A stretch of DNA of 30,174 bases, from assembly GCA_025965495.1 (NCBI GenBank), contig JAOPWW010000339.1, positions 1 to 30,174 on the forward strand. Direction: 5' to 3'. The translations under genes were made by a program, and so were the position numbers. Positions 3,803-27,721 of the stretch are shown one piece after another (positions within the stretch are counted from its first letter, which is position 1; every line of letters begins with the position of its first letter). The DNA is from Frankiales bacterium. GTDB taxonomy: Bacteria; Actinomycetota; Actinomycetes; Mycobacteriales; SCTD01. The notes beneath the pieces are model-generated. The model did no database searches. It saw nothing but the letters and a program-made list of their open reading frames with translations, and was not told the origin of the DNA.

Positions 3803-3833
3803 GCCGCTGTCGCGCAGCAGGAGGTCGGGCCCG

Positions 3834-8319: not shown

Positions 8320-8352
8320 CGGAGCGCACCACCTCGACGAAGGAGCACGGAC

Positions 8353-13606: not shown

Positions 13607-13622
13607 TGGTCAGACCTATAGT
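13607..13622 (+). promoter_or_regulatory. FadR/GntR-family operator 3 (TGGTC-A-GACCT) overlapping a -10 box TATAGT
   Basis: Shares GGTCAGACCT exactly with operator 2; -10 at 13617-13622, 34 nt before the TTG start at 13657. Confidence 0.65.
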
Positions 13623-13656
13623 CGTGACGTCCGCCACTCGACCGAGGGAGCAGCCG

Positions 13657-14307
13657 TTGCCCAGCGCCGTGCTGCTCGACGACCACCAGGTCGTCCTCGA
13701 CGGCCTGGCCGTCGCCCTCGAGCGGGGCGGCTTCGAGGTCCTCGCCTGCAGCACCCGGCCGAGCGAGGCGCTGGACGAGGTCCGGCGCCACACGCCCGAC
13801 CTGTTCGTCTGCGACTGGTGGCTCGGCCAGGAGCAGGCGGCCGCCCACGTCGCGGAGGCGCGCCGCCTCAGCCCGACGACCCGGGTCGCCGTCCTCACGG
13901 GCCACGAGGACGGCTCCGTCGCCGCTGCCGCCCTGAACGCCGGCGCCAACGGCTTCCTCGTCAAGGACGCCCTGCGCCAGGACCTCGTCCAGCAGCTGCT
14001 GCAGGTGGCCAGCGGACAGCTGGTCCTGGACGCCCGCGTGTCCGAGCACGTCCTGTCGCCGGCGAAGTACCGCCTGACCCCGCGCGAGGAGGCCGTGGTC
14101 ATCGCCATCGCCGCCGGCCGCACCAACCGTGAGATCGCCGCCGAGCTGATGCTCAGCGCCCACACGGTCAAGGAGCACGTCGGCAACGTCATGCGCAAGC
14201 TCGGCACGACCAGCCGCGCGCAGACCGCCGTCGTCGCCATGACCGCCGGTCTGGTCCCGCCCACGCAGTCGCCCGTCCGGGGCGGCCTCGCCGGCGGTCG
14301 CCGGTGA
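13657..14307 (+). CDS. NarL/LuxR-family response regulator
   Basis: SD GAGGGAG then TTG; receiver LLDDH, phospho-Asp in VCDW, LTG, LVKD; HTH LTPREEAV...TNREIAAELMLSAHTVKEHV. Confidence 0.9.
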   Translation: MPSAVLLDDHQVVLDGLAVALERGGFEVLACSTRPSEALDEVRRHTPDLFVCDWWLGQEQAAAHVAEARRLSPTTRVAVLTGHEDGSVAAAALNAGANGFLVKDALRQDLVQQLLQVASGQLVLDARVSEHVLSPAKYRLTPREEAVVIAIAAGRTNREIAAELMLSAHTVKEHVGNVMRKLGTTSRAQTAVVAMTAGLVPPTQSPVRGGLAGGRR

Positions 14308-15692
14308 ACGTCGTCGCCCCGGTCGGCCGCCGCGCCCCGTCGGGGACGACCCCGACGCTCACGCCTGCGTCGCGGCGCAAGGCCCCGCCGCCCGCGCCCG
14401 CTCCCGTCCCGACAGGGGCCCGGGTGCCGCGCACCGTGGGCATCGTGGCGAGCACCCTCACCCGGGCCAGCGCGACCCTGCGGACGGCCGGCACTGGGAC
14501 CGCCGCCGTGAGCAAGCTCGCCAAGGAGCTCTGCCAGGTGCTCGGAGGCACCCGCGCGCTGGTGCTGGTCCTGGACGAGAAGGGCGCGGTCACGGGTCGT
14601 GGCGGCCACGCCCTGCCGGGCAGCGGCTGGACCGGTGAGCTGGGGGACCTCGCCGCGGAGCCCCTCCTGAGGAAGCTGCTCGAGGGGGGCGACATCCGGC
14701 TCGTCGCCCCGTGCACGTCCGTGCCCCTCGGACCCCGCACCCGCTCGGCCTTCCGGGCCGGGCGGCCGCTGCTGCTGCTCCCGCTCCCGTGCGGCGTCCC
14801 CGCGGACGAGGCGGTCGGCGTCGCCGTGGTGGAGGGGCCGCTCGGCCTGGCCCACGACGTCGGCCGCGACCAGCAGCTGCGCCAGCTCTCCGGGGTCCTC
14901 GCCCTCGTCGCCGGGGCCAGCGCGCTGGGGGAGGCGGACGCCACGCGCGCCACCGCCGAGGCGCAGGGCTGGCTCGCCGCCGACCTGCACGACGGCGTCC
15001 TCCAGCAGCTGTTCTGCCTGCAGCTCAAGCTGCGCAACCTCGGCGACACCCTGCCCGAGAGCAGCCCGGCCCGAGCCGGGTTCGACGCGGTGGTCCGCGA
15101 CGTCGAGGCCACCAGTCTCGAGCTGCGCCGCGCGGTGGTCGGCCTGACGCTGCACGGCGACGTCCCGCGCCGGGGTCCGCGACAGGCGTCGGCGTCCCTG
15201 CCGCCGCCCGGCAGTGCGCTCGGCGAGGGAGGTCGGCTGCACCCGCAGGGCGCGCGGCTCGACGCCGAGATCGAGGCCATGCTCGCCGACTTCCAGGAGG
15301 CCACCGGCTGCGCCTTCGACTTCCTCGTCCGTGGCGACGACCTCGGGACGCCGTCGCCGACCGCCGCCGCCCTCATCAGCCGCACGGTGCGCGAGGGCCT
15401 GACCAACATCAGCAAGCACGCGGACGCCACGCAGGTCGTCCTGTCTCTCGGTCGCGGCGCCGGCTGGTGGACCGTGGACCTGCACGACGACGGCCTGGCC
15501 GACGCGAACGTGCTGCGCCGGCGGCTCACCCAGCGCACCGGCGGCTTCGGCCTCGCCAGCCTGCGCACGCAGGCCGCGGACCTCGGCGGCCGGCTGTGGG
15601 TCGGGCAGTCCACCACCCTCACGGGGGTCCACCTGTCCGTGGCCATCCCGGTCGACAGCCCGTCCGGCGACGCGCCGGGGGTCGCCGGGTGA
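14304..15692 (+). CDS. Cytoplasmic HisKA_3 sensor histidine kinase with a degenerate GAF-like input region
   Basis: H-box ADLHDGVLQQL, N-box EGLTNISKHA, DDG, G2 GGFGL; no clear TM segment; GTGA overlap; exact start uncertain. Confidence 0.82.
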   Translation: MNVVAPVGRRAPSGTTPTLTPASRRKAPPPAPAPVPTGARVPRTVGIVASTLTRASATLRTAGTGTAAVSKLAKELCQVLGGTRALVLVLDEKGAVTGRGGHALPGSGWTGELGDLAAEPLLRKLLEGGDIRLVAPCTSVPLGPRTRSAFRAGRPLLLLPLPCGVPADEAVGVAVVEGPLGLAHDVGRDQQLRQLSGVLALVAGASALGEADATRATAEAQGWLAADLHDGVLQQLFCLQLKLRNLGDTLPESSPARAGFDAVVRDVEATSLELRRAVVGLTLHGDVPRRGPRQASASLPPPGSALGEGGRLHPQGARLDAEIEAMLADFQEATGCAFDFLVRGDDLGTPSPTAAALISRTVREGLTNISKHADATQVVLSLGRGAGWWTVDLHDDGLADANVLRRRLTQRTGGFGLASLRTQAADLGGRLWVGQSTTLTGVHLSVAIPVDSPSGDAPGVAG

Positions 15693-16363
15693 GCACCGCG
15701 ACCGGACCGCTGCTGCAGGTGCGCGACCGCGCGCGGGGCGACCTCGAGGTGCCGCACGGCGGGGTCGTCGTGCTGCTGGCCCCGTCCGGCGGGGGCAAGA
15801 CCCAGTGGGTGCGCGCCCTGCTCGGGCTCGACGGCGGCCGGATGGACGAGGTGCGGGTCGACGGCCGCAAGGCCGACACCCAGGCGGTGCGCAAGGCGGT
15901 CGGCTGGGTCCCCGAGGGCGACGGAGCGGTCCTCGACCTGACCGTCTGGGACAACGTCGCGTGCCCCCCTCACCTGCCGCCGGTCCCGCACGCCGACGCC
16001 GCGGACGCGCTCGACCTGCTGGGCCTGACCGCTCTCAGCCGGCACCGCGCCTGGTCGCTGAGCCGCAACGACCGCCGACGCGTCGCGCTCGCGCGCGTGG
16101 TGGCGCGCCGCAACCCGCTGCTCGTCGTCGACGGCGACCTCGACGCCACCCTGATGCCCCTGCTGCTCCCCCTGCTCGAGCAGGCACCGGGGCTGCAGGG
16201 CGTGCTGCTGACCTCCTCGCGCGCCGGGGACCTGGCCTGGCGGGCCGGGTCGGTCGGCCTGATGCTCGAGGGTCGGGTGCTCGAGCAGGCGCCCTGGGCC
16301 GAGCTGGTCACGGCGCAGCGCAGCCCGGTGCGCGACGCCGTCCTGTGGGTGCAGCCGCAGTGA
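15689..16363 (+). CDS. Degenerate (probably catalytically dead) MceG/MlaF-like ABC ATPase-fold protein
   Basis: Walker A APSGGGKT kept; Q-loop, signature (LSRND), Walker B Glu (VVDG) and H-loop (LTSS) lost; colinear with 19136-19933; GTGA overlaps at both ends. Confidence 0.75.
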   Translation: MSTATGPLLQVRDRARGDLEVPHGGVVVLLAPSGGGKTQWVRALLGLDGGRMDEVRVDGRKADTQAVRKAVGWVPEGDGAVLDLTVWDNVACPPHLPPVPHADAADALDLLGLTALSRHRAWSLSRNDRRRVALARVVARRNPLLVVDGDLDATLMPLLLPLLEQAPGLQGVLLTSSRAGDLAWRAGSVGLMLEGRVLEQAPWAELVTAQRSPVRDAVLWVQPQ

Positions 16364-16935
16364 GCAAGCGCCGCCGCCCGTCCGGCCAGCGTCGTCCCGC
16401 GCAGCGGCGATCTGCTGCCGCGACCCCGCCCAGCAGTCCTGCCGCGCCTGCTGCGCGGACCGCCCCCGCTGCCCGGACCGCCTCCGCTGCGCCGACCGGC
16501 CCCGCACCCGGTCGTCCGGCTGCGGCTGCCCGTCCGGCTCCTTCCGGCGCCGTCCCGGTGTTCGACGTGCCGGAGCTGGTGCGCGGGGCGTCGTCGGGGT
16601 TCAGCGTCCTGCTGCTCGGCAGCGCGGCGCAGCCGATCGCGAGCGCGGTCAGCTCCCAGCTCGGCCTGCTGTGGCTGAGCCTCACCGCGGCCCTCGCCTT
16701 CGTGCTGGCCGGCCGGCGGGTCGGCGCCGCGGGTCGCCCGCTCCTGCAGGGCCCGGTCGCGGCGGTCCTGGCCTTCACCCTCACGCTGCCCCTGGTGGTG
16801 GTCCTGCAGGGCGGGCTGCACGTGGTGCAGTCGGCCGTGACGCTCGTCTACGCCGTCGTCGTGGGGGCGTTCGCCACCCGCCTGCCCCGGCGCGCGCCAC
16901 GCTCGCGGGGGACCCGCGAGGGCCAGGGCGCCTAG
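16360..16935 (+). CDS. Small membrane protein: basic Pro/Ala-rich N-terminal tail plus about 4 TM helices
   Basis: GTGA overlap; four hydrophobic stretches after about residue 70; no recognisable catalytic motif. Confidence 0.7.
   Translation: MSKRRRPSGQRRPAQRRSAAATPPSSPAAPAARTAPAARTASAAPTGPAPGRPAAAARPAPSGAVPVFDVPELVRGASSGFSVLLLGSAAQPIASAVSSQLGLLWLSLTAALAFVLAGRRVGAAGRPLLQGPVAAVLAFTLTLPLVVVLQGGLHVVQSAVTLVYAVVVGAFATRLPRRAPRSRGTREGQGA
16450..16503 (+). repeat. 3 x 18-nt imperfect tandem repeat encoding AARTAP-AARTAS-AAPTGP
   Basis: gctgcgcggaccgccccc / gctgcccggaccgcctcc / gctgcgccgaccggcccc. Confidence 0.7.
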
Positions 16936-16946
16936 TCCTTCCTGAC

Positions 16947-16976
16947 CATCCCCACCCCCCCGAACGGGGGGAGATG
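16947..16976. promoter_or_regulatory. C-run/G-run inverted repeat (terminator or regulator-binding site)
   Basis: CATC..CCCCCCC-GAAC-GGGGGG-A-GATG in the 113-nt gap before yrbEA. Confidence 0.45.
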
Positions 16977-17020
16977 CCCGACATGCGGTGGGTTATGCCA
17001 GGCACCTGTGACCTCTTACG

Positions 17021-17034
17021 GTGACGCGAGTCAC
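17021..17034. promoter_or_regulatory. CRP/FNR-like palindrome GTGAC-GCGA-GTCAC (GTGA-N6-TCAC)
   Basis: Inverted repeat overlapping a candidate -10 TACGGT (17017-17022), just upstream of SD GGAGGT. Confidence 0.45.
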
Positions 17035-17048
17035 GACGGAGGTAGCCC

Positions 17049-18236
17049 GTGAAGGACGACGACGGACCCGCAGAGGGTCCTGCAGCGAAGGCCGTGCCCA
17101 CGCCTCGCCCGAGGACGCGCACGGTCGCAGTGGAGGCGTCGGCGACGCCTGTGGCGCGCCGCGCCACGAAGCGCCGGACGGCCGGGTCCGTCCCCGTCGT
17201 CTCCCTCGAGGAGGCGTCCGTGGCGCTCGACGACGACGGCCCGAGCCGCTGGGAACTGCTGGACACCGACGGCGAGCCGGCGCAGGACGAAGGGCGCGAC
17301 GCCGCCTTCGCCGGCCTCCCGCCCGCGACGGCGCTCGCGCTGCTCGACGACCCCGAGGAGGCGCAGCGCCTCCAGGTGCCCACCGGGCTCATGGGCAGCG
17401 AGAGCGAGGCCCTCCAGGCGGCCGAGGAGTCGCTGAAGGCCAAGCGCAAGGGCCCGAACGTCCTGGTCCGCGGCCTCGTGGAGCTCGGGGAGATGTCGAC
17501 GATGGGCGCGGCGGTCCTCTACGACGCCGTCCGTCACCCGCGTGGCTACTGGGGCGACGTCCGCGACCAGATGCACAGCATCCTCAAGCTCTGCTGGCTC
17601 CCGATGATCGTCAGCTGCATCGCCTTCGGCCTGGGCGCTCCTGGCCTGCAGGGCGGCAACATCTACAGCCTGTTCGGCATCCCGGACCGCCTCGGCTCGT
17701 TCTTCATCATGGCGTCGGTCCGCGAGTTCGCCCCGTGGATCAACGCCATGGTCGTGGCCGGCGTCGTCGGCACGGCCGTGACCGCCGACCTCGGCGCCCG
17801 GCGCATCCGCGAGGAGATCGACGCGCTCGAGGTGCTCGGCATCGACGTCATGCGCAGCCTGATCCTGCCGCGTGTGCTCGGCCTGATGTTCATGACCGGC
17901 CTGCTGGACCTGCTGGCCCTGGCCTGCGGCATCGTCGGCGGCTTCATCGCCGCCGTCCCGATCCTGGGCTCCAGCCCCGGTGCGTTCTACGGCAGCTTCT
18001 TCGCCAACGCAAACGTCGTCGACCTGCTCGGCTCGGTCATCAAGACCTCGTGCTTCGGGCTCTTCGTCGGCGTCATCTGCTGCTACAAGGGCTACACGGC
18101 CAAGGGTGGCCCGATCGGCGTCGGACGTGCCGTGAACCAGGCCGTCGTCATCAGCTTCGCCGCGATCTGGATCTTCAACTACGTGTTCACCGCCACCATG
18201 CTCGGGCTCTTCCCCGAGATCCAGGTCTTCCGGTAG
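17049..18236 (+). CDS. yrbEA: YrbE/MlaE-family permease subunit A with a long N-terminal extension
   Basis: VREFAP...AGVVGTAVTADLGARRIREEIDALEVLGID, GYTAKGGPIGVGRAVNQAVV; SD GGAGGT before GTG. Confidence 0.9.
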   Translation: MKDDDGPAEGPAAKAVPTPRPRTRTVAVEASATPVARRATKRRTAGSVPVVSLEEASVALDDDGPSRWELLDTDGEPAQDEGRDAAFAGLPPATALALLDDPEEAQRLQVPTGLMGSESEALQAAEESLKAKRKGPNVLVRGLVELGEMSTMGAAVLYDAVRHPRGYWGDVRDQMHSILKLCWLPMIVSCIAFGLGAPGLQGGNIYSLFGIPDRLGSFFIMASVREFAPWINAMVVAGVVGTAVTADLGARRIREEIDALEVLGIDVMRSLILPRVLGLMFMTGLLDLLALACGIVGGFIAAVPILGSSPGAFYGSFFANANVVDLLGSVIKTSCFGLFVGVICCYKGYTAKGGPIGVGRAVNQAVVISFAAIWIFNYVFTATMLGLFPEIQVFR

Positions 18237-18249
18237 AGGGTCGCTGACA

Positions 18250-19122
18250 ATGACTACGATGTTGATCCCCCCGGACGTCCGCGAGGACGACCAGTTCCAG
18301 GACTTCGAGCCGCAGGGCGTCACGTTCACGCCCGGCACCTTCGCCGACAAGGCGAAGGAGATGCTGCGCACCTTCGGCGAGCTCGCCCGGTTCAGCGTCG
18401 CCACCGTCAAGTCCATCCCCGGCCTGCGCAGCTACAGCAGCGAGGTGCTCCGTCAGACGTCGATCCTGGTGCTCTCCAGCGGTCTGATCATCTGGCTGAT
18501 GCTGTTCGTGATGGGTTCCGTCTGCGGCGTCGAGGCGAACTACACCCTCAAGCAGATCGGCGCCCCGCTCTACTCCGGCGTCTTCACCGCCTACTGCGGG
18601 CTGCGCGAGATGGCGCCGTACATGTGGGGCTACATCCTCGCGGCCAAGGTCGGCTGCGGCCTCGTCGCCGAGATCGGCTCCATGCGGATCTCCGAGGAGG
18701 TCGACGCGATGGAGGTCATGGGCGTCGACTCCATGACCTACCTCGTCGCCGCCCGCGTCGTGGCCGCCTGGATCGCCATGCCGTTCCTCTACATCGTCGG
18801 CCTCGGGCTGCTCGACCTGTCCGAGTACCTGGTGGTGGTGGTCCAGCTCAGGGGCGTCTCGGCCGGCGCCTACTCGTTCATCTTCTGGCTGTACCAGAAC
18901 CCCGCCGACCTGCTGTTCAGCCTCGCCAAGGCGATGGCCATGGGCACGGTGATCGTCTTCGTCGGCTGCTTCTACGGCTACACGACGCGCGGCGGACCGG
19001 TGAACGTCGGCCGCAACACCGCGAAGTCCATGGTCCTGAACATGGTGCTCGTCCACGTCGTGGGCCTGCTCGGCACCCAGCTGTTCTGGGGCCTCGCTCC
19101 CAACGCCCCCATCGCGAACTGA
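18250..19122 (+). CDS. yrbEB: YrbE/MlaE-family permease subunit B
   Basis: LREMAP...AAKVGCGLVAEIGSMRISEEVDAMEVMG, GYTTRGGPVNVGRNT. Confidence 0.92.
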   Translation: MTTMLIPPDVREDDQFQDFEPQGVTFTPGTFADKAKEMLRTFGELARFSVATVKSIPGLRSYSSEVLRQTSILVLSSGLIIWLMLFVMGSVCGVEANYTLKQIGAPLYSGVFTAYCGLREMAPYMWGYILAAKVGCGLVAEIGSMRISEEVDAMEVMGVDSMTYLVAARVVAAWIAMPFLYIVGLGLLDLSEYLVVVVQLRGVSAGAYSFIFWLYQNPADLLFSLAKAMAMGTVIVFVGCFYGYTTRGGPVNVGRNTAKSMVLNMVLVHVVGLLGTQLFWGLAPNAPIAN

Positions 19123-19135
19123 GAAGGCTGCCCCG

Positions 19136-19933
19136 ATGACTGCTCCCACGATGCACCCCGGCACCCGCCGCCCCGACCTCGAGAACGCGGTCGAGGTGAC
19201 CGACCTGCACAAGAAGTTCGGCGACTTCGAGGTCCTCAAGGGCCTCGACATGAACTTCAAGAACGGCGCGATCACCACGGTCCTCGGTCCGTCCGGCACC
19301 GGCAAGAGCGTGCTGCTCAAGCACATGGTCGCCCTGCTGGAGCCCGACCGCGGCGACGTCGTGTTCTACGGCGAGAAGGTGTCCGGGATGACGCAGGCCG
19401 AGAAGCTGCAGATGCGGCAGCGCTACGGCGTCCTGTTCCAGGACGGCGCGCTCTTCGGCTCGATGAACATCTACGACAACGTCGCCTTCCCCCTCCGCAA
19501 GCACACCGACAAGTCGGAGGAGGAGATCCGCGACCTCATCATCCGGCGCCTGACCGAGGTCGGCCTGGACCGGTCCTTGACCAAGTTCCCGAACGAGGTC
19601 TCGGGCGGGATGCGCAAGCGCGCCGGCTTCGCCCGGGCGCTCGTGCTCAACCCCGACGTCGTGCTGTTCGACGAGCCCGACTCCGGCCTCGACCCGGTCC
19701 GCACCAGCCTGCTCAACGACCTGATCCTGGACATGCACGCCGAGCACGGCGGCACGTACCTCCTGGTCACCCACAACATCCCGACGGCGCGCAAGGTCAG
19801 CGACTACGTCGGCCTCGTCTGGCAGGGCCGCAAGATCCACTACGGCCCGACCGAGGAGGCGTTCGACAGCGAGGACCCGTTCGTCCGCCAGTTCCTCGCG
19901 GGTGACTCGGCCGGCCCGCTCGGGATGGACTGA
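19136..19933 (+). CDS. mceG: MceG/Mkl/MlaF-family ABC ATPase (intact)
   Basis: GPSGTGKS, LFQDGALF, VSGGMRKRAGFARAL, LFDEPDSGLDP, VTHN, SEDPFVRQFL. Confidence 0.92.
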   Translation: MTAPTMHPGTRRPDLENAVEVTDLHKKFGDFEVLKGLDMNFKNGAITTVLGPSGTGKSVLLKHMVALLEPDRGDVVFYGEKVSGMTQAEKLQMRQRYGVLFQDGALFGSMNIYDNVAFPLRKHTDKSEEEIRDLIIRRLTEVGLDRSLTKFPNEVSGGMRKRAGFARALVLNPDVVLFDEPDSGLDPVRTSLLNDLILDMHAEHGGTYLLVTHNIPTARKVSDYVGLVWQGRKIHYGPTEEAFDSEDPFVRQFLAGDSAGPLGMD

Positions 19934-21159
19934 TGTCCAAGGCACTCGCCCTCACAGCAGCGGCGGCCGTCATCAGCAGCCTCGTGCTCGCCGGCGGCGT
20001 CGCCCACGCGGACGACTACTCCGTCAAGCTCGTCTTCCCCTCCGCCCCGAGCGTGCTCAAGGGCGAGCGCGTCGTCGTCGGCGGGATCCAGGCCGGCAAG
20101 GTGGCCTCGGTCCGCGCCAAGGACGGCCAGGCGGTGGTCACGGTCACGCTCGACCAGGCCTACGCGCCGCTCCACGAGGGGACCACGGCTGCGATCGAGT
20201 GGAAGGCCCTGCTCGGCGAGCGTGTCATCAACGTGACCCCCGGGCCGAAGAGCAGCAGGAAGCTGCGCGACGGCGCGCTCGTCCGCGGCATGGACGACCG
20301 CGTCGAGCTCGACGAGGTGCTCAACACCCTCGACGCCCCCACCCGGGAGCGGCTCAAGGGCACCCTCGCCCAGCTGACGAAGGTCGTCGACGGCAACGAG
20401 AAGCCCGTGAACGACACGCTGGCCGCCACGGCCCCGACGCTCGACGCGCTGTCGAACGTGCTGGCGGGCCTCGGCACCGACGGTCCGGCCATCCACGACC
20501 TCGTGACCCGGCTGGACGCCATGGTCGGCGAGCTCGACGCCCGCCGCGGCGACCTGTCGACGACGGTGCGGGACCTGACGGCGCAGCAGACGACGCTGAC
20601 CGCGCGGCAGGCCGAGATGCAGTCCACGCTCGTGCGGCTGCCCGGCGCGCTGGACCAGGCGCGCAGCACGCTCGACAAGGTGCCCGGCGCCGTGCGGGCA
20701 GCCGGCCCGCTCCTGCGCGACCTCGCGCCCGTCACCGCGAAGCTCCCCGGCGTGACGTCACAGCTGACGCCGCTGCTGCGGGACCTCAACCCCACCCTCG
20801 AGCAGCTGCGGCCGACCGCCGCCGACCTGTCCAGCGTGCTCGCCCAGACGCCCGGGCTGCTCGACACGAGCTCGGCGCTCCTGCCGCAGGTGTCGAGCAC
20901 GCTCGACCAGCTGTCACCGGCGCTGACCTACGTGCGCCCCTACACCCCCGAGATCATGGGCTTCCTGTCCAACTGGGGGCAGGCCGGCGCGCAGTTCGAC
21001 AGCCAGGACCACGTGGCCCGCGTCCGCGTGACCGAGGGCACCACCAGCCCTGTGGGCGTGCTGACCTCACTTCCGCCCGGCATCACCAAGGGCAACCGCA
21101 AGCCTGGCCAGAACGCCGGCCAGACCTGGACCGACGCACACGGGGACACGATCCGATGA
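19933..21159 (+). CDS. mce: MCE-family protein 1 (possible cleavable signal peptide)
   Basis: MCE domain (LKGERVVVGGIQAGKV...ALLGERVINVTPG), long helical region, C-terminal PY...F...D...R motif; TGATG overlap. Confidence 0.88.
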   Translation: MSKALALTAAAAVISSLVLAGGVAHADDYSVKLVFPSAPSVLKGERVVVGGIQAGKVASVRAKDGQAVVTVTLDQAYAPLHEGTTAAIEWKALLGERVINVTPGPKSSRKLRDGALVRGMDDRVELDEVLNTLDAPTRERLKGTLAQLTKVVDGNEKPVNDTLAATAPTLDALSNVLAGLGTDGPAIHDLVTRLDAMVGELDARRGDLSTTVRDLTAQQTTLTARQAEMQSTLVRLPGALDQARSTLDKVPGAVRAAGPLLRDLAPVTAKLPGVTSQLTPLLRDLNPTLEQLRPTAADLSSVLAQTPGLLDTSSALLPQVSSTLDQLSPALTYVRPYTPEIMGFLSNWGQAGAQFDSQDHVARVRVTEGTTSPVGVLTSLPPGITKGNRKPGQNAGQTWTDAHGDTIR

Positions 21160-22610
21160 AGCTCCTCCTCGACGGGCACCGCTACGGCGCCCTCGGCGTC
21201 GCGGCCGCCGTCGTGCTCAGCACCACCGGCCTCGCCACCGGTGCCACGCACATGGGCCACCGCTCCGACGCGCGCCGGGTCTTCGTCGACCTCGCCGACG
21301 CCGGCGCGATCATCAACGGCAACGACGTCCGCCTCCACGGCGTCAAGGTCGGCAGCGTCTCGAGCGTCAAGGTCGTGAAGGGCAAGGCGCGTCTGGCCCT
21401 GGACCTCATCGAGGACGCCGGCCCGCTCCACCGGGACGCGGTGGTCCGGGTCCGTCCGGTCAGCCTGCTCGGCGAGCGCTTCGTCGAGATCGAGCCCGGG
21501 ACGGCTGCCGCGCCGCTGCTCGAGGACGGCGACGTCATCCCGGCGTCGCAGTCCAGCCGGTCGGTCGACCTCGACGAGGTCCTCAACGCCGTCGACGCCC
21601 CGACCGGCAAGGCGCTGCAGGCGCTCGTCACCGGCCTCGGCGAGGGCGTCGCGGGCCAGGGCGGCAACACGCGGGACGCGCTCAAGGCGCTCAGCCCGGC
21701 GCTCAGCCGCACCGACGAGCTCGTCGCCATCCTCGACGACCAGAACAGCGTCCTCACCACGCTCATCGACGACGTCACCCCGGTCATGGCCGGTCTCGAC
21801 GCCGACGGGGGCAAGGACCTCGACGCCCTCATGGGGAACGCCGGGCACCTGCTGGCGGCGACGTCGGCGCAGCAGGAGGCCATGGCGGCCTCGCTGCAGG
21901 CGCTGCCCGCGACGCTGAAGCAGGCACGCAGCACGCTCGCCGTCCTGTCCGGCGTGGCCGACCAGGCCACCCCGGCCCTGCACGACCTCCGCCCGGTCAC
22001 GAGCGACCTCGCCGGCATCTCCCGCGAGCTCGAGGCGTTCGGAGCCGCTGCCGACCCGGCGCTCGCCAGCCTCACGCCGGTGCTCGCCCGGGCGCAGACC
22101 CTTCTCGACCAGACCCGGCCGCTGGTGGCCGAGCTGCAGAGGACCAGCCCGCTGCTGGTGAAGGACACCGCGGCCGCCACCGAGCTGCTCACCGACTACC
22201 GCACGCACCTGCGCGGGACGCTGAACTTCCTGCGCGACTGGGGCATCACGGCCAACGGCCAGGACGGCCTGTCCAACTACTTCCGCGCCGTCGTCGCGGT
22301 CGAGGGCGAGACCGCGACGACCCCCGTCGACGCGGTCGCGCCGGGCGTGGTCCCGCCGCTGCCCAAGCTGCCGGGCCAGCCCGCGGTCAAGGTCCCGGGG
22401 GTGAAGGTGCCGGCCGTCAAGGTCCCCGCGCTGAAGGTCCCCGCTCTCGAGGTCCCGGGCGTCAAGGCACCCGCCGTGACGGTGCCGCGCGTCGGCGGCC
22501 TGCTCAAGGCGCCGACCACCACCTCCGGTCCGCGCGCGCCCAGTGCGACCGGTCTCACCCCGCAGCAGGAGTCCAACCTGCTCGGCTTCCTGCTTGGAGG
22601 CACGCCGTGA
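21156..22610 (+). CDS. mce: MCE-family protein 2 with a Pro-rich pentapeptide-repeat tail
   Basis: GNDVRLHGVKVGSV...SLLGERFVEIEPG; ATGA overlap. Confidence 0.88.
   Translation: MKLLLDGHRYGALGVAAAVVLSTTGLATGATHMGHRSDARRVFVDLADAGAIINGNDVRLHGVKVGSVSSVKVVKGKARLALDLIEDAGPLHRDAVVRVRPVSLLGERFVEIEPGTAAAPLLEDGDVIPASQSSRSVDLDEVLNAVDAPTGKALQALVTGLGEGVAGQGGNTRDALKALSPALSRTDELVAILDDQNSVLTTLIDDVTPVMAGLDADGGKDLDALMGNAGHLLAATSAQQEAMAASLQALPATLKQARSTLAVLSGVADQATPALHDLRPVTSDLAGISRELEAFGAAADPALASLTPVLARAQTLLDQTRPLVAELQRTSPLLVKDTAAATELLTDYRTHLRGTLNFLRDWGITANGQDGLSNYFRAVVAVEGETATTPVDAVAPGVVPPLPKLPGQPAVKVPGVKVPAVKVPALKVPALEVPGVKAPAVTVPRVGGLLKAPTTTSGPRAPSATGLTPQQESNLLGFLLGGTP
22380..22484 (+). repeat. 7 x 15-nt tandem repeat encoding P-[AG]-[VL]-[KET]-[VA]
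   Basis: PAVKV PGVKV PAVKV PALKV PALEV PGVKA PAVTV read directly from sequence. Confidence 0.85.
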
Positions 22611-23890
22611 TCCCCCAGGGACGCGACCGCAAGCCGGCCCTGGTCGGGATCGGCATGGTCGGGCTGTTCGGCCTCAGCCTCGGCCTCGCCTTCACCATCG
22701 CCAGCAACGTGCCGGGCCGGCACTACACGGTCGCCAAGGCCTCCTTCAGCGACGTCGGCGGCCTGCGGGTCGGCGACGACGTCCGGGAGAACAGCGTCCG
22801 CATCGGCCAGGTGCGCGCCATCGACGTCGGGGAGCACGGTGGCCTCGTCACCCTGCAGATCGACGGCCAGAAGGAGCTGTACTCCGACGCCAAGGCGGCG
22901 CTGCGCGCCCGCTCGTCGCTCGGCCAGACCTACGTCGACCTGGCCCCCGGCACGGCGGCCAAGGGCGCTCTGCCGAAGGCCGGCATCCCGGTGGCGGCCA
23001 CCTCGGCACAGACGCAGCTCGACGACGTGCTCAACGTCTTCGACACGAAGACCCGCAAGCAGGCGGCCGACGTGCTGGCCACGACCGGCCACGGCGTCGC
23101 CGGTCACTCGCAGGACGTCAACGACTTCCTGGCGAACGGTCCCGACACCTTGAACGCCCTGGGTGCCGTCACCGGCGCCGCCGCGAGCAAGGAGGCCGAC
23201 GTGACGAGCCTCATCGCCACGTCGGGCCGGCTCGCCTCCCGCGTCAGCGACCAGCAAGCCGAGATCGCGGGTCTGGTGCGCGACACCGGCACCGTCCTCG
23301 GCGCCGTCGCCACCGAGGACGGCACGCCGCTCCAGCAGACGCTGGTCGAGCTCCCCAGCACCCTCGCGGCCGCCCGCGTCGGTCTGCACGAGGCGGAGCA
23401 GCCGCTGCAGGACACCGCCGACGCGCTGACCGCCCTGCGCCCGGCCGCCCGCGACCTCGGCGCCGTCACGCCCGCGCTCCGCAAGACGGTGCGCGACCTG
23501 GTCCCTCCGCTCGAGAAGGTCCCGGGCGTCGCCGGCAAGACGAGCACGGCCGTCACGAGCCTGCGCAGGACCGCGACGGACCTCCGCCCGCTGGCCCCGA
23601 AGATCACCAAGGGCCTGTCGCTCGGCAACGACCCGCTCGAGGTGCTCGCCCCCTACGGCCTCGACATCGGGCTGTTCTTCGACAGCTTCGCCCGCACGGT
23701 CGAGAACTCCAACCCGGACGGCAGCCACTACGTCCGCATCGACGTCACCGAGACCACGCAGGTCCTCAGCGGCAACGTCCCGGTGGCCGACCCGCTGAGC
23801 AAGCGCGACCCCTACCCGAAGCCGCGCACCGCGCGCGGACCGGGCGCTCCCTACGGCTACGACGACCCCCAGGCGAAGGGCACCCCATGA
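22607..23890 (+). CDS. mce: MCE-family protein 3
   Basis: N-terminal TM; GLRVGDDVRENSVRIGQV...SSLGQTYVDLAPG; GTGA overlap. Confidence 0.88.
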   Translation: MIPQGRDRKPALVGIGMVGLFGLSLGLAFTIASNVPGRHYTVAKASFSDVGGLRVGDDVRENSVRIGQVRAIDVGEHGGLVTLQIDGQKELYSDAKAALRARSSLGQTYVDLAPGTAAKGALPKAGIPVAATSAQTQLDDVLNVFDTKTRKQAADVLATTGHGVAGHSQDVNDFLANGPDTLNALGAVTGAAASKEADVTSLIATSGRLASRVSDQQAEIAGLVRDTGTVLGAVATEDGTPLQQTLVELPSTLAAARVGLHEAEQPLQDTADALTALRPAARDLGAVTPALRKTVRDLVPPLEKVPGVAGKTSTAVTSLRRTATDLRPLAPKITKGLSLGNDPLEVLAPYGLDIGLFFDSFARTVENSNPDGSHYVRIDVTETTQVLSGNVPVADPLSKRDPYPKPRTARGPGAPYGYDDPQAKGTP

Positions 23891-25167
23891 CCGCCACCCC
23901 GCGCCCCGGGCGCGTGACCACGATGCAGATCGGCATCACGCTGGTCGTCCTCGTCCTCGGCCTCGGCACCGTCCTGTTCCAGAAGAACTACCTGAGCACC
24001 AAGCTCGCCTCCGGCGAGACGGTCAAGGCGGACTTCTCCCGGGACTACCGCCTGCGCCCCTACATCAGCAAGGTGAAGGTGGCCGGCGTCGTGGTCGGCA
24101 CGGTCACCGGCGTGAAGGCCCTCGACAAGGGCGCTGCTCGCGTCACGATGAAGCTCGAGGACGGCACGCGCGGCAAGGTCGGTGCGGCACCCTCGGCGAA
24201 GATCCGTCCGGCGACCCTCCTGGGCGGCAACTACTACGTCGACCTCGTGCCGGGTGGTGACCGCACCAGGAAGCCCGGGTCGGTCATCCCGCTGGCCCGG
24301 ACCACGGTCCCCGTGGAGCTGGACGCCGTGCTCACCGCGCTGCGCACCCCGCAGCGCAAGGCGATCCAGGACGTGCCGCGGCAGCTCGACGGCGCGCTCA
24401 CGCACGGCGGTACCAAGGGCCTGCAGGAGCTCGCCGTCGCGGCGCCGGACAGCCTCCGCCGCGCCGCCGACGTCCTCGAGGCCGTGCGAGGCACCCAGCC
24501 CGAGTCGGACCTGCAGAAGCTCGTCCCGGGCCTGCAGTCCACGGCCCAGCAGCTCTCGAAGCGCCCCGGCCAGCTCGAGGGCAGCAGCGCCGACCTCGCC
24601 GTCGGCAGCGAGGTGCTCGCCCAGCGGGCCGCCGCCATCAACGCGACGCTGGCCCGGGCCCCGCTGGCGCTGGACCAGACGCGCGAAGGCCTCGCCCGCC
24701 TGTCCGGCGTCCTGGACGCGCTCGACGAGACGTCCGTGGCCGCCCGGCCGTCGGTCCGCGAGCTCGGCCGGTTCCTCGACAGCGCGGAGCCGGCCGTCCG
24801 GGCAGCCCGCCCGGTCGTCGCCGACCTCCGTCCGCTGATGACGGACCTGCGCGCCACCACCCACGAGCTCCTGCCGGCCGTCGGGGCGGCACAGACCGTG
24901 GTCGACGACGTCCGCGGGCCGGTGATCGACCGGGTGCGCGGCCCCATCACGCAGGCACTGGTGAAGCCGTACCGCAACGGCGACGAGTTCTACAAGTCCT
25001 TCGCCTCCTTCTGGTCGAACATGAACGGCACCTCGATGATCTCCGACCGGAACGGCAGCCAGATCGGGTTCCAGCCCGGCTTCGCCGGTGAGACGCCCCA
25101 GACGCCCGAGATCAAGAGCGTGATCGACCTGCTCACCTCCATCGACGAAGCCGGAGCCGTCAAGTGA
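23887..25167 (+). CDS. mce: MCE-family protein 4
   Basis: N-terminal TM; SKVKVAGVVVGTV...TLLGGNYYVDLVPG; ATGA overlap. Confidence 0.88.
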   Translation: MTATPRPGRVTTMQIGITLVVLVLGLGTVLFQKNYLSTKLASGETVKADFSRDYRLRPYISKVKVAGVVVGTVTGVKALDKGAARVTMKLEDGTRGKVGAAPSAKIRPATLLGGNYYVDLVPGGDRTRKPGSVIPLARTTVPVELDAVLTALRTPQRKAIQDVPRQLDGALTHGGTKGLQELAVAAPDSLRRAADVLEAVRGTQPESDLQKLVPGLQSTAQQLSKRPGQLEGSSADLAVGSEVLAQRAAAINATLARAPLALDQTREGLARLSGVLDALDETSVAARPSVRELGRFLDSAEPAVRAARPVVADLRPLMTDLRATTHELLPAVGAAQTVVDDVRGPVIDRVRGPITQALVKPYRNGDEFYKSFASFWSNMNGTSMISDRNGSQIGFQPGFAGETPQTPEIKSVIDLLTSIDEAGAVK

Positions 25168-26417
25168 GCGCCTCGCTCGCCCAGCGCTGGGCCCGCACGA
25201 AGGCCGAGCCCGGCCTCGGCCGGGACGTCCGCGTCCTCATCGCCACCGTCGTGGCCGGAGTGCTGGTGGGCGGCTACGTCCTGTTCATGCAGCGCGTCGA
25301 GCCCCCGTGGACCGGCAGCTACACCTTCGCCGGGGAGTTCCAGTCGGTGCCGGCCGTCAGCCCCGGCAACGGCCAGGAGGTCCGCATCGCGGGCGTCCCC
25401 GTCGGCTCCATCACCAAGGCGAGCGTGACGGACGCCGGCACGGCGAAGCTCACCATGAAGCTCGACGAGGGCACCGTCGTCTACAAGGACGCGAAGCTCC
25501 TGCTGCGCCCGAAGAGCCCGCTCAACGAGATGTACGTCGAGATGGACCCGGGCACCGCGAAGGCCGGCAAGCTGCGCGAGGGCGGCACGATCGCCAAGTC
25601 GCAGACGGCGCAGCCGGTCCTGGTCGACGAGGTCCTCGGCAACCTCGACAAGCGCAGCCGCGACGCGCTCAGCAGCCTGCTCGCGGAGTCGGACGTGGCC
25701 CTGGCCCACGCCCAGCCCGACCTCGTCGACGGCATCGGGTCGGTCAAGGACACCGTCGTCGACCTCAAGCCGCTCGCGACCGCCCTGCAGACCCGCCGCG
25801 ACAAGATCGCCCGGCTCGTCACCGACGTCAGCCGCATCTCCCAGGTGGTGGGCGGCAAGGACCAGCGCCTCGCCGCCCTGGCGAACGACACGAGCCGCAC
25901 GCTGGCCACGGTGTCCAGCAACAACGACGCCCTGTCGGCCAGCCTCGCCGACCTGCCGGGTGTGGTCGACGAGCTCGGCAACGCGACGAGCAAGGTCGAC
26001 GGCCTCGCCGACGAGCTCACGCCCACGCTCAAGGACGTCACCGCCGCCAGCAAGGACCTCCCGCCGGCCCTGCGCGAGCTGACCGACACGGTCGAGAGCC
26101 TGCGCACGTTCTCGGACAAGGCCCGCCCGGTGATCGCTGACGCCCGGCCGGTCGTCGCCGGCCTGCGCCCCGTGGTCCGCGACCTCAACACCTCGCTGCG
26201 CCGGATCAGCCCGATCACCGCGAAGCTCGACCAGGACACGGCCCTGCTGGTGCCGTACCTCGTCGGGGTGCAGGACTTCTTCTACAACACGATGCAGCTC
26301 ACGACCCTCTCGGACGCCAACGGCGGCATCTTCCGCGGCATCGTCCAGGAGGGCTCGACCGCCCTGCCCGTCACCGCCCCCGGCATCCCCGCCGCGACCT
26401 CCCGGAGCGCCAAGTGA
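25164..26417 (+). CDS. mce: MCE-family protein 5
   Basis: N-terminal TM; GQEVRIAGVPVGSI...SPLNEMYVEMDPG; GTGA overlap. Confidence 0.88.
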   Translation: MSASLAQRWARTKAEPGLGRDVRVLIATVVAGVLVGGYVLFMQRVEPPWTGSYTFAGEFQSVPAVSPGNGQEVRIAGVPVGSITKASVTDAGTAKLTMKLDEGTVVYKDAKLLLRPKSPLNEMYVEMDPGTAKAGKLREGGTIAKSQTAQPVLVDEVLGNLDKRSRDALSSLLAESDVALAHAQPDLVDGIGSVKDTVVDLKPLATALQTRRDKIARLVTDVSRISQVVGGKDQRLAALANDTSRTLATVSSNNDALSASLADLPGVVDELGNATSKVDGLADELTPTLKDVTAASKDLPPALRELTDTVESLRTFSDKARPVIADARPVVAGLRPVVRDLNTSLRRISPITAKLDQDTALLVPYLVGVQDFFYNTMQLTTLSDANGGIFRGIVQEGSTALPVTAPGIPAATSRSAK

Positions 26418-27721
26418 AGCTGCACTTCTCCGCCGCCTCGCTGCCCCGCTGGCGCCTGGGGACCGTCGTGGTCTTCACCCTGCTCAGCCTGGCGATGTTC
26501 CTGTTCCTCTGGGTCAACAGCGGCGGTCACCTCCCGGGCGTCGGCAACACGTACAGGGTCGCCGTCCAGGTGCCGAACGCCCAGAACCTCGTCGCGAACT
26601 CCGACGTCACGGTCGCCGGAGTGAAGATCGGCAAGGTCGAGTCGATCAAGACCGTGAACGGCGTCGCCCGGGCCGTCCTCGGCCTGGACCACGAGGTCGT
26701 CCCGCTGCACGAGGGCGCCACGGTGGCCCTGCGCAGCAAGACCCTCATCGAGGAGACGTACCTCGACATCTCCGACGGCTCCGGCAAGGCCATGGCGAGC
26801 GACGCGGTGCTGCCCGTCACGGCGACCAAGCCGGCCGCGCACCTCGACGACGTCCTGAACAGCCTCGACAAGCCGACGCTCACCGCCCTCGGACAGCTGG
26901 TCCGCAGCGGGGACGACGCGACGCAGGGTCGCTCGGCGGACATCGCCGCGACGCTCTCGGCCCTGGGCGTCCTCGGTCGGGACGGGCACGACGTCCTCGA
27001 CGCCCTCGCGGCCCAGGGCGAGGACCTCAAGACGCTGTCGCGCAGCACGACCCGGGTCCTGTCGGCGCTGGACACGAACCAGGGCGACATCTCCACCCTC
27101 GTCACCGCGGCCTCGGGCAACATGCGGGCCGGCGCGGCCCAGAAGGACGCGATCGCGGCCACCGTGACCCGTCTGCCCGGGACGCTGCGGTCGGCGCGCG
27201 CCGCCACCACGGACCTCCGCGTCCTGTCCCGCGACCTCGCTCCCGTCGCCCGCAACCTCAAGGTCGCGGCACCCGGCCTGCGCAGCACCGTCGCGGAGCT
27301 CCCGGAGGCCACCCGCCAGCTGGAGGCGACGATCCCGTCGCTGAACACGCTGCTCGACCGCGCACCGGCCACCCTGACCCGGGTGCCCGCCTTCAGCTCC
27401 GCCACCAGCGGGCTGGTCCCGCCGGCGCGGCAGGTCATGGCCGACCTCAACCCGATGCTCGGCTACCTCGAGCCGTACGGCCCGGAGATCTCCGCCTTCT
27501 TCACGACCATCGGCGGCGCCGTCAACCCGGTCGACGGGAACGGCGGGTACATCCGGGTCAACGCGATCTTCCAGCCCCAGTCGGTGACCGGGCTCCCCGT
27601 CGCCACCAACGGGCTGACCCCGGGGACGGGCGCGAACCCCTACCCTGCGCCGGGTGAGAACCGCGCCCCGAAGCCCGTGTTCACCGGCACGTACACGAGG
27701 GTGACCAGGGACGTGCCGTGA
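26414..27721 (+). CDS. mce: MCE-family protein 6
   Basis: N-terminal TM; NLVANSDVTVAGVKIGKV...TLIEETYLDI; DGNGGYIR; GTGA overlap. Confidence 0.88.
   Translation: MKLHFSAASLPRWRLGTVVVFTLLSLAMFLFLWVNSGGHLPGVGNTYRVAVQVPNAQNLVANSDVTVAGVKIGKVESIKTVNGVARAVLGLDHEVVPLHEGATVALRSKTLIEETYLDISDGSGKAMASDAVLPVTATKPAAHLDDVLNSLDKPTLTALGQLVRSGDDATQGRSADIAATLSALGVLGRDGHDVLDALAAQGEDLKTLSRSTTRVLSALDTNQGDISTLVTAASGNMRAGAAQKDAIAATVTRLPGTLRSARAATTDLRVLSRDLAPVARNLKVAAPGLRSTVAELPEATRQLEATIPSLNTLLDRAPATLTRVPAFSSATSGLVPPARQVMADLNPMLGYLEPYGPEISAFFTTIGGAVNPVDGNGGYIRVNAIFQPQSVTGLPVATNGLTPGTGANPYPAPGENRAPKPVFTGTYTRVTRDVP

What the first reader, a model, noticed from the sequence alone, without database searches (positions are those of the whole stretch)
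13607..16935. Four-gene coupled module: response regulator, soluble kinase, pseudo-ATPase, 4-TM protein
Seen: all three junctions are GTGA overlaps (14304, 15689, 16360). The module has its own -10 and FadR-type operator and lies directly before the Mce operon. The kinase has no TM sensor, yet is co-translated with an ABC-fold protein and a small membrane protein. Known: some two-component systems sense via transporters or accessory membrane proteins (BceAB-BceRS, Pst-PhoU-PhoR, UhpC-UhpB). Inference: an Mce-coupled signalling complex, not one I recognise, in which the dead ATPase and 4-TM protein tether the kinase to the membrane or permease and report transporter state or lipid availability.
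Basis: partly seen in the sequence, partly recalled or inferred. Interest (0 to 1): 0.82.

Follow-up and report, generated by a model that had tools for sequence, protein, structure and literature searches.

The report
Kinase pair beside Mce accessory genes
Four overlapping genes ahead of a lipid-import (Mce) operon in a soil actinobacterium combine an ordinary-looking signalling pair with two undescribed Mce accessory proteins, a "dead" ATP-binding protein and a small membrane protein; the same four genes sit together in five other genomes, so they probably tune lipid uptake, but how is not shown.

Summary
The window carries RR (13657-14307), a soluble kinase (14304-15692), a degenerate ABC ATPase "pATP" (15689-16363) and a four-helix membrane protein "TM4" (16360-16935). 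They are joined by three GTGA overlaps and lie 113 bp before yrbEA-yrbEB-mceG-mceA-F-MMPL.

- **Four genes together:** they co-occur in 6 loci, in three arrangements (collinear, back-to-back, convergent). Every full-length orthologue of this kinase that I found lies beside a pATP-TM4 pair.
- **pATP alone:** it is far commoner without the kinase. In about 22 loci it sits at the tail of mce operons, next to an MMPL-like gene and a SurA-like PPIase.
- **TM4 alone:** it also occurs before yrbEA without pATP.
- **The kinase has its own sensor:** a cytoplasmic GAF domain.

So pATP and TM4 are first of all Mce accessory proteins. The two-component system is a lineage-restricted add-on attached to that pair.

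My best reading (0.45) is a cascade: GAF kinase to RR, to transcription of pATP-TM4, to post-translational modulation of Mce.

No RNA data, multimer models or binding data were available. The scan had noted only this same stretch before, not other DNA.

The parts
13607..13617 (.). Imperfect palindrome TGGTCAGACCT; one of three WGGTCNGACCW sites in the window. A candidate operator that overlaps the -10-like hexamer.
   Evidence: (3 sites against 0.10 expected)
13617..13622 (+). -10-like hexamer TATAGT, 35 nt before the RR start. No -35 consensus.
   Evidence: the consensus sigma-70 scan found nothing
13657..14307 (+). NarL/FixJ-type response regulator (REC + GerE HTH). Probable TTG start behind GAGGGAG. 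The acidic pocket DD, the acceptor Asp, and the conserved Thr and Lys are all present.
   Evidence: (Response_reg 7.6e-18, GerE 3e-17)
14304..15692 (+). Soluble histidine kinase: divergent GAF, then HisKA_3, then HATPase_c. The H-box His and the N/G boxes are intact. The N-terminal ~65 aa are low-complexity.
15689..16363 (+). pATP: an ABC nucleotide-binding-domain protein. Walker A and the Walker B Asp are kept; the signature, catalytic Glu and H-loop His are lost family-wide, and the Q-loop Gln in nearly all members.
16360..16935 (+). TM4: ~65-aa basic/Pro-Ala disordered N-tail plus a four-helix membrane core. It belongs to an unannotated family.
16955..16971 (+). C7-GAAC-G6 hairpin directly after TM4. 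It is conserved in L025.
16987..17044 (+). Conserved block before yrbEA: GGTGGGTTA, a -10-like TACGGT, an inverted repeat GTGAC-N4-GTCAC (GTGAG-N4-CTCAC in L025) and a GGAGGTA Shine-Dalgarno. It suggests the mce operon has a promoter or leader of its own.
17049..19933 (+). yrbEA (17049-18236), yrbEB (18250-19122) and a canonical mceG-like ATPase (19136-19933).
19933..27721 (+). Six MlaD-domain mce genes.
27718..30120 (+). MMPL-like 800-aa membrane protein that ends the contig. In related loci this gene is the usual neighbour of pATP.

Best explanation
The stretch joins two things.

(1) A catalytically competent cytoplasmic two-component system: a GAF-HisKA_3-HATPase_c kinase and a NarL/GerE-type regulator.

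(2) A conserved, translationally coupled pair of Mce accessory genes. pATP is an ABC nucleotide-binding-domain protein that can probably still bind nucleotide but cannot hydrolyse it. TM4 is a tetraspan with both ends, and a conserved Arg-rich TM2-TM3 loop, on the cytoplasmic side.

Shown: both accessory families are tied to actinobacterial mce loci on their own. The kinase family occurs only beside the pATP-TM4 pair.

Inferred: the kinase senses a cytoplasmic ligand through its GAF domain and phosphorylates the RR. The RR controls transcription of its own operon, that is pATP-TM4, and perhaps the adjoining mce promoter. TM4 anchors pATP at the membrane. The pair then modulates the Mce transporter after translation, for example by occupying or altering the ATPase docking site on YrbEA/B, as Mce1N does, or by holding an Mce transmembrane helix, as LucB does. 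A WGGTCNGACCW-binding repressor, shared with the upstream lipid-catabolic genes, adds a second layer of control.
For: - Domains and intact catalytic residues of the RR and HK.
- GAF in 3 of 4 orthologous kinases that align end to end with the window's.
- Loss of hydrolysis motifs in pATP with an invariant Walker A, family-wide apart from the Q-loop Gln.
- The window's own MceG has all canonical motifs, so the Mce ATPase is complete without pATP.
- pATP and TM4 overlap or lie within 8 nt of each other in 8 of the 10 pair loci (the start in L129 is uncertain; L048 is decayed).
- pATP lies in mce-MMPL-PPIase operons in about 30 loci.
- TM4 sits directly before yrbEA without pATP in G427 (twice), Frankia sp. 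L138, L137 and G689.
- In four loci the kinase and pATP are back-to-back, with start codons about 12 bp apart or less in the three read closely. This is the classic regulator/target layout.
- Loci without the two-component system have GAF-GerE one-component regulators nearby (L025, L138). That is the same sensor and output types fused in one protein.
- There is precedent for post-translational Mce regulators that compete with MceG (Mce1N) and for a tetraspan subunit (LucB).
Against: - No RR binding site was identified, and no expression data exist.
- The kinase family lies strictly beside pATP-TM4 rather than beside the yrbEA promoter. That fits a protein-level link between kinase and pATP equally well.
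- In most loci pATP's nearest neighbours are MMPL and a PPIase, not YrbE. Its partner may therefore not be the ABC permease.
- Nucleotide binding by pATP is inferred only. No A-loop aromatic residue is evident.
- TM4's structural resemblance to LucB or FtsX is at noise level for helical bundles.
- The loci are related by descent, so the counts overstate independence.
Confidence: 0.45

Rival explanations
1. pATP and TM4 act upstream of the kinase as a membrane-anchored co-sensor. The nucleotide state of pATP, or its engagement with the Mce permease, is passed to the soluble kinase, perhaps through the GAF domain. RR output then reports transporter state or lipid flux, in a Bce- or Pst/PhoU-like logic.
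For: - Every full-length orthologue of this kinase found lies next to a pATP-TM4 pair, in three arrangements. This includes two found by kinase-first searches and others.
- The two-component system was never seen at loci that have only pATP or only TM4.
- In the window all four genes are translationally coupled.
- A NarL-type RR is also directly coupled to TM4, without a kinase, in G689 and near TM4 in L027.
Against: - pATP-TM4 pairs exist without any two-component system in L025 (the nearest orthologous locus), L039, L040 and L139, and pATP alone in about 22 loci. Their function therefore does not require the kinase.
- The kinase has its own GAF sensor.
- The defining Bce features are not met: an intramembrane kinase, an active ATPase and a large permease.
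- In G016 pATP looks decayed while the kinase, RR and TM4 are intact. This rests on one MAG only.
Confidence: 0.2
2. pATP-TM4 is a minimal FtsEX/MacB-like mechanotransmission unit, or a stable structural subunit of the Mce/MMPL machine. It would help assemble or gate the envelope-spanning complex together with the SurA-like PPIase. The two-component system would be merely its local transcription factor, or unrelated to it.
For: - The top Foldseek hit of the TM4 model is FtsX in FtsEX (E 0.31, probability 0.84).
- VIA-align gives FtsX Z 7.0/6.9 and HrtB and YtrF Z 6.3.
- pATP is nearly always adjacent to a SurA-like PPIase and an MMPL-like gene.
- The ABC fold is clear.
Against: - Mechanotransmission needs ATP hydrolysis, and the hydrolysis motifs are lost family-wide.
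- TM4 has no extracytoplasmic domain between TM1 and TM2.
- All fold scores are within the noise for helical bundles.
- Most pATP loci have no TM4 next to pATP.
Confidence: 0.15
3. No functional link exists. The two-component system was inserted once next to pATP-TM4 in an ancestor and has been carried along and locally rearranged. It regulates other genes, such as the upstream lipid-catabolic cluster. The GTGA overlaps only reflect the compact gene packing of high-GC actinobacteria.
For: - The loci with the two-component system are few (6) and come from related uncultured lineages: 4 of 78 genomes of one family, plus two metagenome contigs.
- On the pATP tree the label needs only 2-3 changes, and support is weak.
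- Four-base overlaps are common in such genomes; mceF/MMPL overlaps too.
Against: - Three distinct arrangements all keep the two-component system immediately beside the pair, not elsewhere in the 15-kb mce locus.
- The four sequences are divergent (kinase 30-31%, pATP 43-47% identity to the window's), so the linkage has survived long divergence.
Confidence: 0.15

Closest known systems
Mce1N (MSMEG_0959/Rv0513), post-translational negative regulator of Mce1
   Same: A non-core protein acts on an actinobacterial Mce ABC transporter at the permease/ATPase interface. A dead nucleotide-binding domain would be an obvious way to compete with MceG for YrbE (paper 10.1101/2022.06.08.495402).
   Different: Mce1N has two TM helices plus a cytoplasmic domain and is encoded away from mce. 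pATP is a soluble ABC-fold protein and TM4 a tetraspan, and both are encoded inside mce loci. No sequence relation was seen, and competition with MceG is untested.
LucB (MSMEG_3032/Rv2536), tetraspan subunit of Mce1
   Same: Both are small four-helix membrane proteins with a disordered cytoplasmic tail, associated with hetero-oligomeric actinobacterial Mce systems. VIA-align places 8fed_K at rank 4 of 48,161 chains (Z 7.3, 114 residues aligned; paper 10.1101/2022.12.08.519548).
   Different: There is no sequence similarity, even with a 50-sequence profile at E up to 10. The Z score is below the noise level stated for helical bundles. The tail is N-terminal here and C-terminal in LucB. LucB is not encoded at mce loci, while TM4 is. 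TM4 is often coupled to pATP.
BceAB-BceRS type transporter-coupled two-component systems
   Same: Two-component genes are adjacent to ABC-type genes, and the idea is that the transporter informs the kinase.
   Different: BceS is a membrane kinase without a sensor domain; here the kinase is soluble and has a GAF domain. BceA is an active ATPase and BceB a 10-TM permease with a large external domain. Here the ATPase is dead and the membrane partner is a ~120-aa tetraspan core (191 aa with its tail).
MceG/MlaF, the ATPase of Mce/Mla transporters
   Same: ABC nucleotide-binding-domain fold; encoded in an mce locus.
   Different: pATP is 23% identical to the window's own MceG. The best solved relatives of the pATP profile are ABCB-type, amino-acid importer and LolD domains, and no Mce/Mla ATPase is among the 60 shown. 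The hydrolysis motifs are absent.
GAF-GerE (LuxR-family) one-component regulators next to related mce loci
   Same: The same sensor type (GAF) and output type (GerE HTH) lie beside homologous pATP-TM4/mce or TM4/mce loci that lack the two-component system (L025, L138).
   Different: Here sensor and output are split into a kinase and an RR. BLAST detects no similarity between the GAF domains.

Membership tests
Two-component system, HisKA_3 kinase + NarL-type RR | Kinase: H-box His in a HisKA_3 DHp domain, and HATPase_c with N and G boxes | tested here: met
   HisKA_3 3.3e-07 (above cut-off). HATPase_c 24.0 bits (just under the 26.4 cut-off), but all four orthologues match it. LHDG, the N of TNISKH, DDG and GFGL are invariant.
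Two-component system, HisKA_3 kinase + NarL-type RR | RR: receiver domain with acceptor Asp, plus a GerE HTH | tested here: met
   Response_reg 7.6e-18, GerE 3e-17. DD, the acceptor D, T and K are visible in the translation.
Catalytically active ABC ATPase | Walker A GxxGxGK[ST] and Walker B hhhhD | tested here: met
   S33 G34 G36 K37 and D148 are invariant in 15 sequences.
Catalytically active ABC ATPase | Q-loop Gln, LSGGQ signature, catalytic Glu after Walker B, H-loop His | tested here: not met
   The Q-loop reads WVPEGDG. The signature position is variable (LSRND, LPRQG and others). Walker B reads DG, not DE. The H-loop is Ser/Ala. The last three hold in all aligned members; the Q-loop Gln is kept in one aligned member, P0050, and in G016/L048.
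MceG/MlaF orthologue | Closest relatives are Mce/Mla ATPases | tested here: not met
   23% identity to the window's MceG. The PDB profile search gave no Mce/Mla ATPase among the best 60.
Bce-type sensory transporter/two-component module | Intramembrane-sensing kinase (2 TM, no sensor domain) plus an active BceA and a BceB-type permease | tested here: not met
   The kinase is soluble and has GAF, the ATPase is dead, and the membrane protein is a ~120-aa tetraspan core.
Bce-type sensory transporter/two-component module | Conserved adjacency of the two-component system and ABC-type genes | tested here: met
   6 loci in three arrangements.
LucB | Sequence homology to MSMEG_3032/Rv2536 | tested here: not met
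   phmmer and a 50-sequence profile against all PDB chains at E up to 10 gave no LucB hit.
LucB | Same tetraspan fold | tested here: inconclusive
   8fed_K Z 7.3, rmsd 4.4, 114 residues aligned, rank 4. The tool states that Z under about 13 is common for helical bundles. LucB is not among the top 50 Foldseek matches listed.
LucB | Binds an Mce transmembrane helix in the assembled transporter | not testable with these tools
   This needs a multimer prediction or a pull-down.
FtsX/MacB-type (type VII) ABC permease | Four-TM core with a large extracytoplasmic domain between TM1 and TM2, partnered with an active ATPase | tested here: not met
   The TM1-TM2 link is 1-2 residues, the ATPase is dead, and the fold hits are weak.
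FadR-type (GntR) operator | TGGTCnGACCA-like palindrome bound by an FCD-domain GntR regulator | tested here: inconclusive
   The palindrome class is enriched (3 against 0.10). Two FCD-domain genes lie on other contigs. No binding evidence exists.

The most novel reading that the evidence does not exclude
pATP-TM4 is a nucleotide- or transport-state sensor docked on the Mce machine. It gates a dedicated soluble GAF kinase. This would be a flux-sensing circuit for lipid import, analogous in logic to Bce or Pst-PhoU-PhoR, but built from a hydrolysis-dead ABC domain and a tetraspan.
Probability: 0.2. Interest if true: 0.8.

Novelty: new variant of a known kind. Interest (0 to 1): 0.55.

Why it matters
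Mce transporters are the main lipid importers of actinobacteria, and how their activity is controlled after transcription is an open question. [quoted passage not shown]

This work defines two undescribed accessory families that are tied to mce loci:
- a uniformly hydrolysis-dead ABC domain, with more than 170 90%-identity clusters;
- a tetraspan with no Pfam model, with about 180 50%-identity clusters.

It also defines a dedicated GAF kinase/RR pair that travels only with them. This gives concrete candidates for bench tests of how lipid uptake is tuned. It also offers a natural example of a pseudo-ATPase used as a regulator or scaffold.

Tried and rejected
- **Kinase homologue searches:** word-based searches, with the whole protein and with residues 66-290, returned only the query. 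Orthologues had to be found through genome searches.
- **Kinase structure:** the AF2 model had pLDDT under 50 across the sensor region, so I did not use it for fold search. GAF rests on Pfam hits in the orthologues instead.
- **'MceG-like' for pATP:** rejected.
- **LucB homology by sequence:** rejected.
- **Atlas lead 'SPW repeat protein' (0.91):** not followed up; treated as a lead only.
- **The two-component system at L137:** it belongs to a different, membrane-bound kinase family, so I did not count it.
- **Kinase hits in family f65:** nine hits match only the kinase core, and seven of the nine loci show nothing else from my queries within their 1.5-kb flanks. L145 also has a 49%-identical RR, and L147 aligns from residue 144. 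I did not count any of them as orthologues.
- **GAF comparison:** no BLAST similarity between the kinase's GAF region and the GAF of the neighbouring GAF-GerE regulators.
- **Class-level genome samples:** they gave almost no TM4 or pATP hits, but only 7-8 candidates per genome were scored, so I read this as low sensitivity, not absence.
- **Promoter scan:** the sigma-70 consensus scan found nothing.
- **RNA data:** no RNA runs hold the stretch, so operon structure could not be read.
- **RR binding motif:** a shared motif could not be sought, because in the back-to-back loci the kinase and pATP starts are about 12 bp apart or less.


Full report
**What is in the window**

The window is the whole 30-kb contig C166 of a 58%-complete, 71-78% GC actinobacterial MAG from soil. 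On the + strand it carries, in order:
- lipid-catabolic genes;
- an NMO/FabK-like gene ending at 13532;
- the four genes of the finding;
- yrbEA (17049-18236), yrbEB (18250-19122) and a canonical mceG-like ATPase (19136-19933);
- six MlaD-domain mce genes (19933-27721);
- an MMPL-like gene (27718-30120), which ends the contig.

**Check of the observation**

The three GTGA overlaps are there. Third-position GC stays at 0.9 or above and passes from frame to frame without a gap.

Position 13607 is the start of the palindrome TGGTCAGACCT, not of a gene. Its last base begins TATAGT. The RR most plausibly starts at TTG 13657, behind GAGGGAG. WGGTCNGACCW occurs three times in the window against 0.10 expected. 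All three sites are A/T-flanked. Which regulator binds them is not known. Two FCD-type GntR genes lie on other contigs.

A Logan contig from a soil run spans 14347-17114 with four differences. A piece from another sample bridges the kinase/pATP junction. The RR/kinase junction is not bridged by the pieces listed.

**The four proteins**

*RR.* It has REC plus GerE domains with all phospho-acceptor residues.

*Kinase.*
- It has HisKA_3 and HATPase_c domains with intact H, N and G boxes, and no hydrophobic segment.
- Its N-terminal ~160 residues give no Pfam hit. It aligns end to end with orthologues from L038, L048 and L129, three of which score as GAF (best 3.1e-06).
- It is therefore a soluble GAF kinase with a sensor of its own.

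*pATP.*
- It belongs to a family of at least 174 90%-identity clusters.
- In 15 aligned members, Walker A, the Walker B Asp and the D-loop LD are invariant. The signature motif, the catalytic Glu and the H-loop His are missing throughout. The Q-loop Gln is missing in all but one aligned member, P0050.
- It is not specifically MceG-like.
- The window's MceG has every canonical motif.
- By the established ABC mechanism, a partner that lacks both the signature and the catalytic residues cannot complete either composite ATP site. pATP is therefore not a working half of the Mce ATPase. This step is inference.

*TM4.*
- It has no Pfam or PDB sequence match.
- A profile of eight homologues finds 180 representative clusters in 1.84 billion proteins.
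- AF2 gives a four-helix bundle. The basic N-tail, TM2-TM3 loop and C-tail point to an N-in/C-in topology (inference).
- Fold matches are weak: FtsX (Foldseek E 0.31), LucB (VIA Z 7.3 over 114 residues) and FtsX (Z 7.0). All are under the tool's stated noise level for helical bundles.

**Comparative test**

I examined 34 loci that carry pATP.

*pATP with neither TM4 nor a two-component system (about 22 loci).* pATP lies at the tail of an mce operon, in one of two orders: mce, MMPL-like gene, pATP, SurA-like PPIase; or mce, MMPL-like gene, PPIase, pATP. Many of these sequences are near-identical.

*pATP directly followed by TM4 (10 loci).* In 8 of the 10 the two genes overlap or lie within 8 nt of each other; the start in L129 is uncertain and L048 is decayed. 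The loci are:

| Locus | Two-component system | Arrangement |
|---|---|---|
| window | yes | collinear (RR, kinase, pATP, TM4) |
| G001/L038 | yes | back-to-back, between the PPIase and pATP |
| G016/L048 | yes | back-to-back, between the PPIase and pATP |
| G719/L163 | yes | back-to-back, between the PPIase and pATP |
| L129 | yes | back-to-back, between the PPIase and pATP |
| L130 | yes | convergent, after TM4 |
| L025 | no | - |
| L039 | no | - |
| L040 | no | - |
| L139 | no | - |

In L038, L048 and L129, which I read closely, the kinase and pATP start codons are about 12 bp apart or less.

*Kinase-first searches.* These covered 300 genomes of the order and all 78 genomes of the family. 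Full-length orthologues turned up only in G001, G016 and G719, each time beside pATP-TM4.

*Counter-examples.*
- L025 is the nearest orthologous locus (YrbE 87%, pATP 58% identity). It has pATP-TM4-yrbEAB but no two-component system. Upstream it has a GAF-GerE and an AAA-GerE regulator instead.
- TM4 alone sits before yrbEA in G427 (two loci), in a Frankia sp. record (again with a GAF-GerE regulator nearby), in L137 and in G689.
- In G689 an orphan NarL-type RR ends 3 nt before TM4, and pATP lies at the far end of the same operon.

**Reading**

pATP and TM4 are each components or modulators of actinobacterial Mce machinery, whether or not a kinase is present. The GAF kinase/RR pair is a rare add-on: 4 of 78 genomes in the family, plus two metagenome contigs. 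It has stayed glued to the pATP-TM4 pair through three rearrangements and down to about 30% kinase identity. This supports a functional link among the four genes. It does not show which way information flows.

I favour a cascade: the two-component system controls pATP-TM4, which controls Mce. My reasons are:
- the kinase has its own sensor;
- back-to-back regulator/target layouts are the commonest form;
- loci without the two-component system carry fused GAF-GerE regulators;
- the accessory pair clearly works without the kinase elsewhere.

Mce1N, which blocks MceG docking on YrbE1B, and LucB, a tetraspan bound to Mce1C, show that such post-translational accessories exist in mycobacteria. The strict kinase/pATP-TM4 co-location supports it.

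**Separate promoter for mce**

The 113-bp spacer between TM4 and yrbEA shares several elements with L025:
- a C7-N4-G6 hairpin;
- GGTGGGTTA;
- a -10-like TACGGT;
- an inverted repeat whose two arms changed together;
- the Shine-Dalgarno sequence.

The mce operon therefore probably has its own promoter or leader, and the four genes form a unit of their own.

**Limits**

- All carriers are MAGs or metagenome contigs.
- Counts are not phylogenetically independent.
- There were no RNA data.
- No multimer prediction was available.
- Nucleotide binding by pATP and every protein contact are inferred.

Noticed in passing
window 16955-17044; L025 11290-11400: The TM4-yrbEA spacer has blocks conserved between two loci whose pATP proteins are only 58% identical: a C7/G6 hairpin, GGTGGGTTA, TACGGT, and an inverted repeat GTGAC-N4-GTCAC that reads GTGAG-N4-CTCAC in L025 (both arms changed together). 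It could be an mce promoter with an operator, or a 5' leader stem.
   Followed up: partly
L026, L030, L032, L033, L035, L043, L044, L053-L057, L129, L139 and others; G000 contig C169:3-875: Mce operons of these lineages end with an MMPL-like gene and a SurA-like PPIase (SurA_N_3 + rotamase domains). The window's genome has such a PPIase cut off at the start of contig C169, so C169 may continue the window contig after the MMPL gene.
   Followed up: partly
L048 (G016:C271) about 8080-8960: pATP in this genome looks decayed. It has a 10-bp tandem duplication near Walker A that shifts the frame, and about 60 residues are missing in the helical subdomain. The neighbouring kinase, RR and TM4 are intact. 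This could be a pseudogene or an assembly error.
   Followed up: partly
L154 (G689:C16) 2990-4311; L027 5645-7033: An orphan NarL-type RR (REC + GerE) ends 3 nt before a TM4 homologue at the head of an mce operon. L027 has the same RR/TM4 neighbourhood, with the RR apparently split. No kinase lies nearby.
   Followed up: partly
L025 4541-5554 (-) and 5762-8104 (+); L138 4200-5486 (-): GAF-GerE and AAA_16-GerE (LuxR-type) one-component regulators lie next to pATP-TM4/mce or TM4/mce loci that lack the two-component system.
   Followed up: no
window 4701, 11345, 13607; L025 9673; L137 1446; L038 19046: WGGTCNGACCW palindromes recur beside lipid-catabolic genes in related loci. In L025 the site lies inside the ferredoxin-reductase gene, 320 bp before pATP.
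   Followed up: partly
A3/A5 alignments, TM1 of TM4: Most TM4 homologues have a conserved membrane-embedded Glu (GELL) in TM1. The window and L025 have GSAA instead.
   Followed up: no
L141-L149 (family f65 genomes): Nine genomes of one family carry kinases whose DHp/CA core scores 1e-35 to 1e-57 against the profile of this kinase. Eight of the nine lack its GAF region (L147 aligns from residue 144). Seven of the nine loci show nothing else from my queries within their 1.5-kb flanks, and none has pATP or TM4; L145 has a 49%-identical RR nearby.
   Followed up: partly
window 17049-17470: YrbEA has an N-terminal extension of about 140 residues, rich in charged and Ala/Pro residues, before the MlaE domain.
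   Followed up: no
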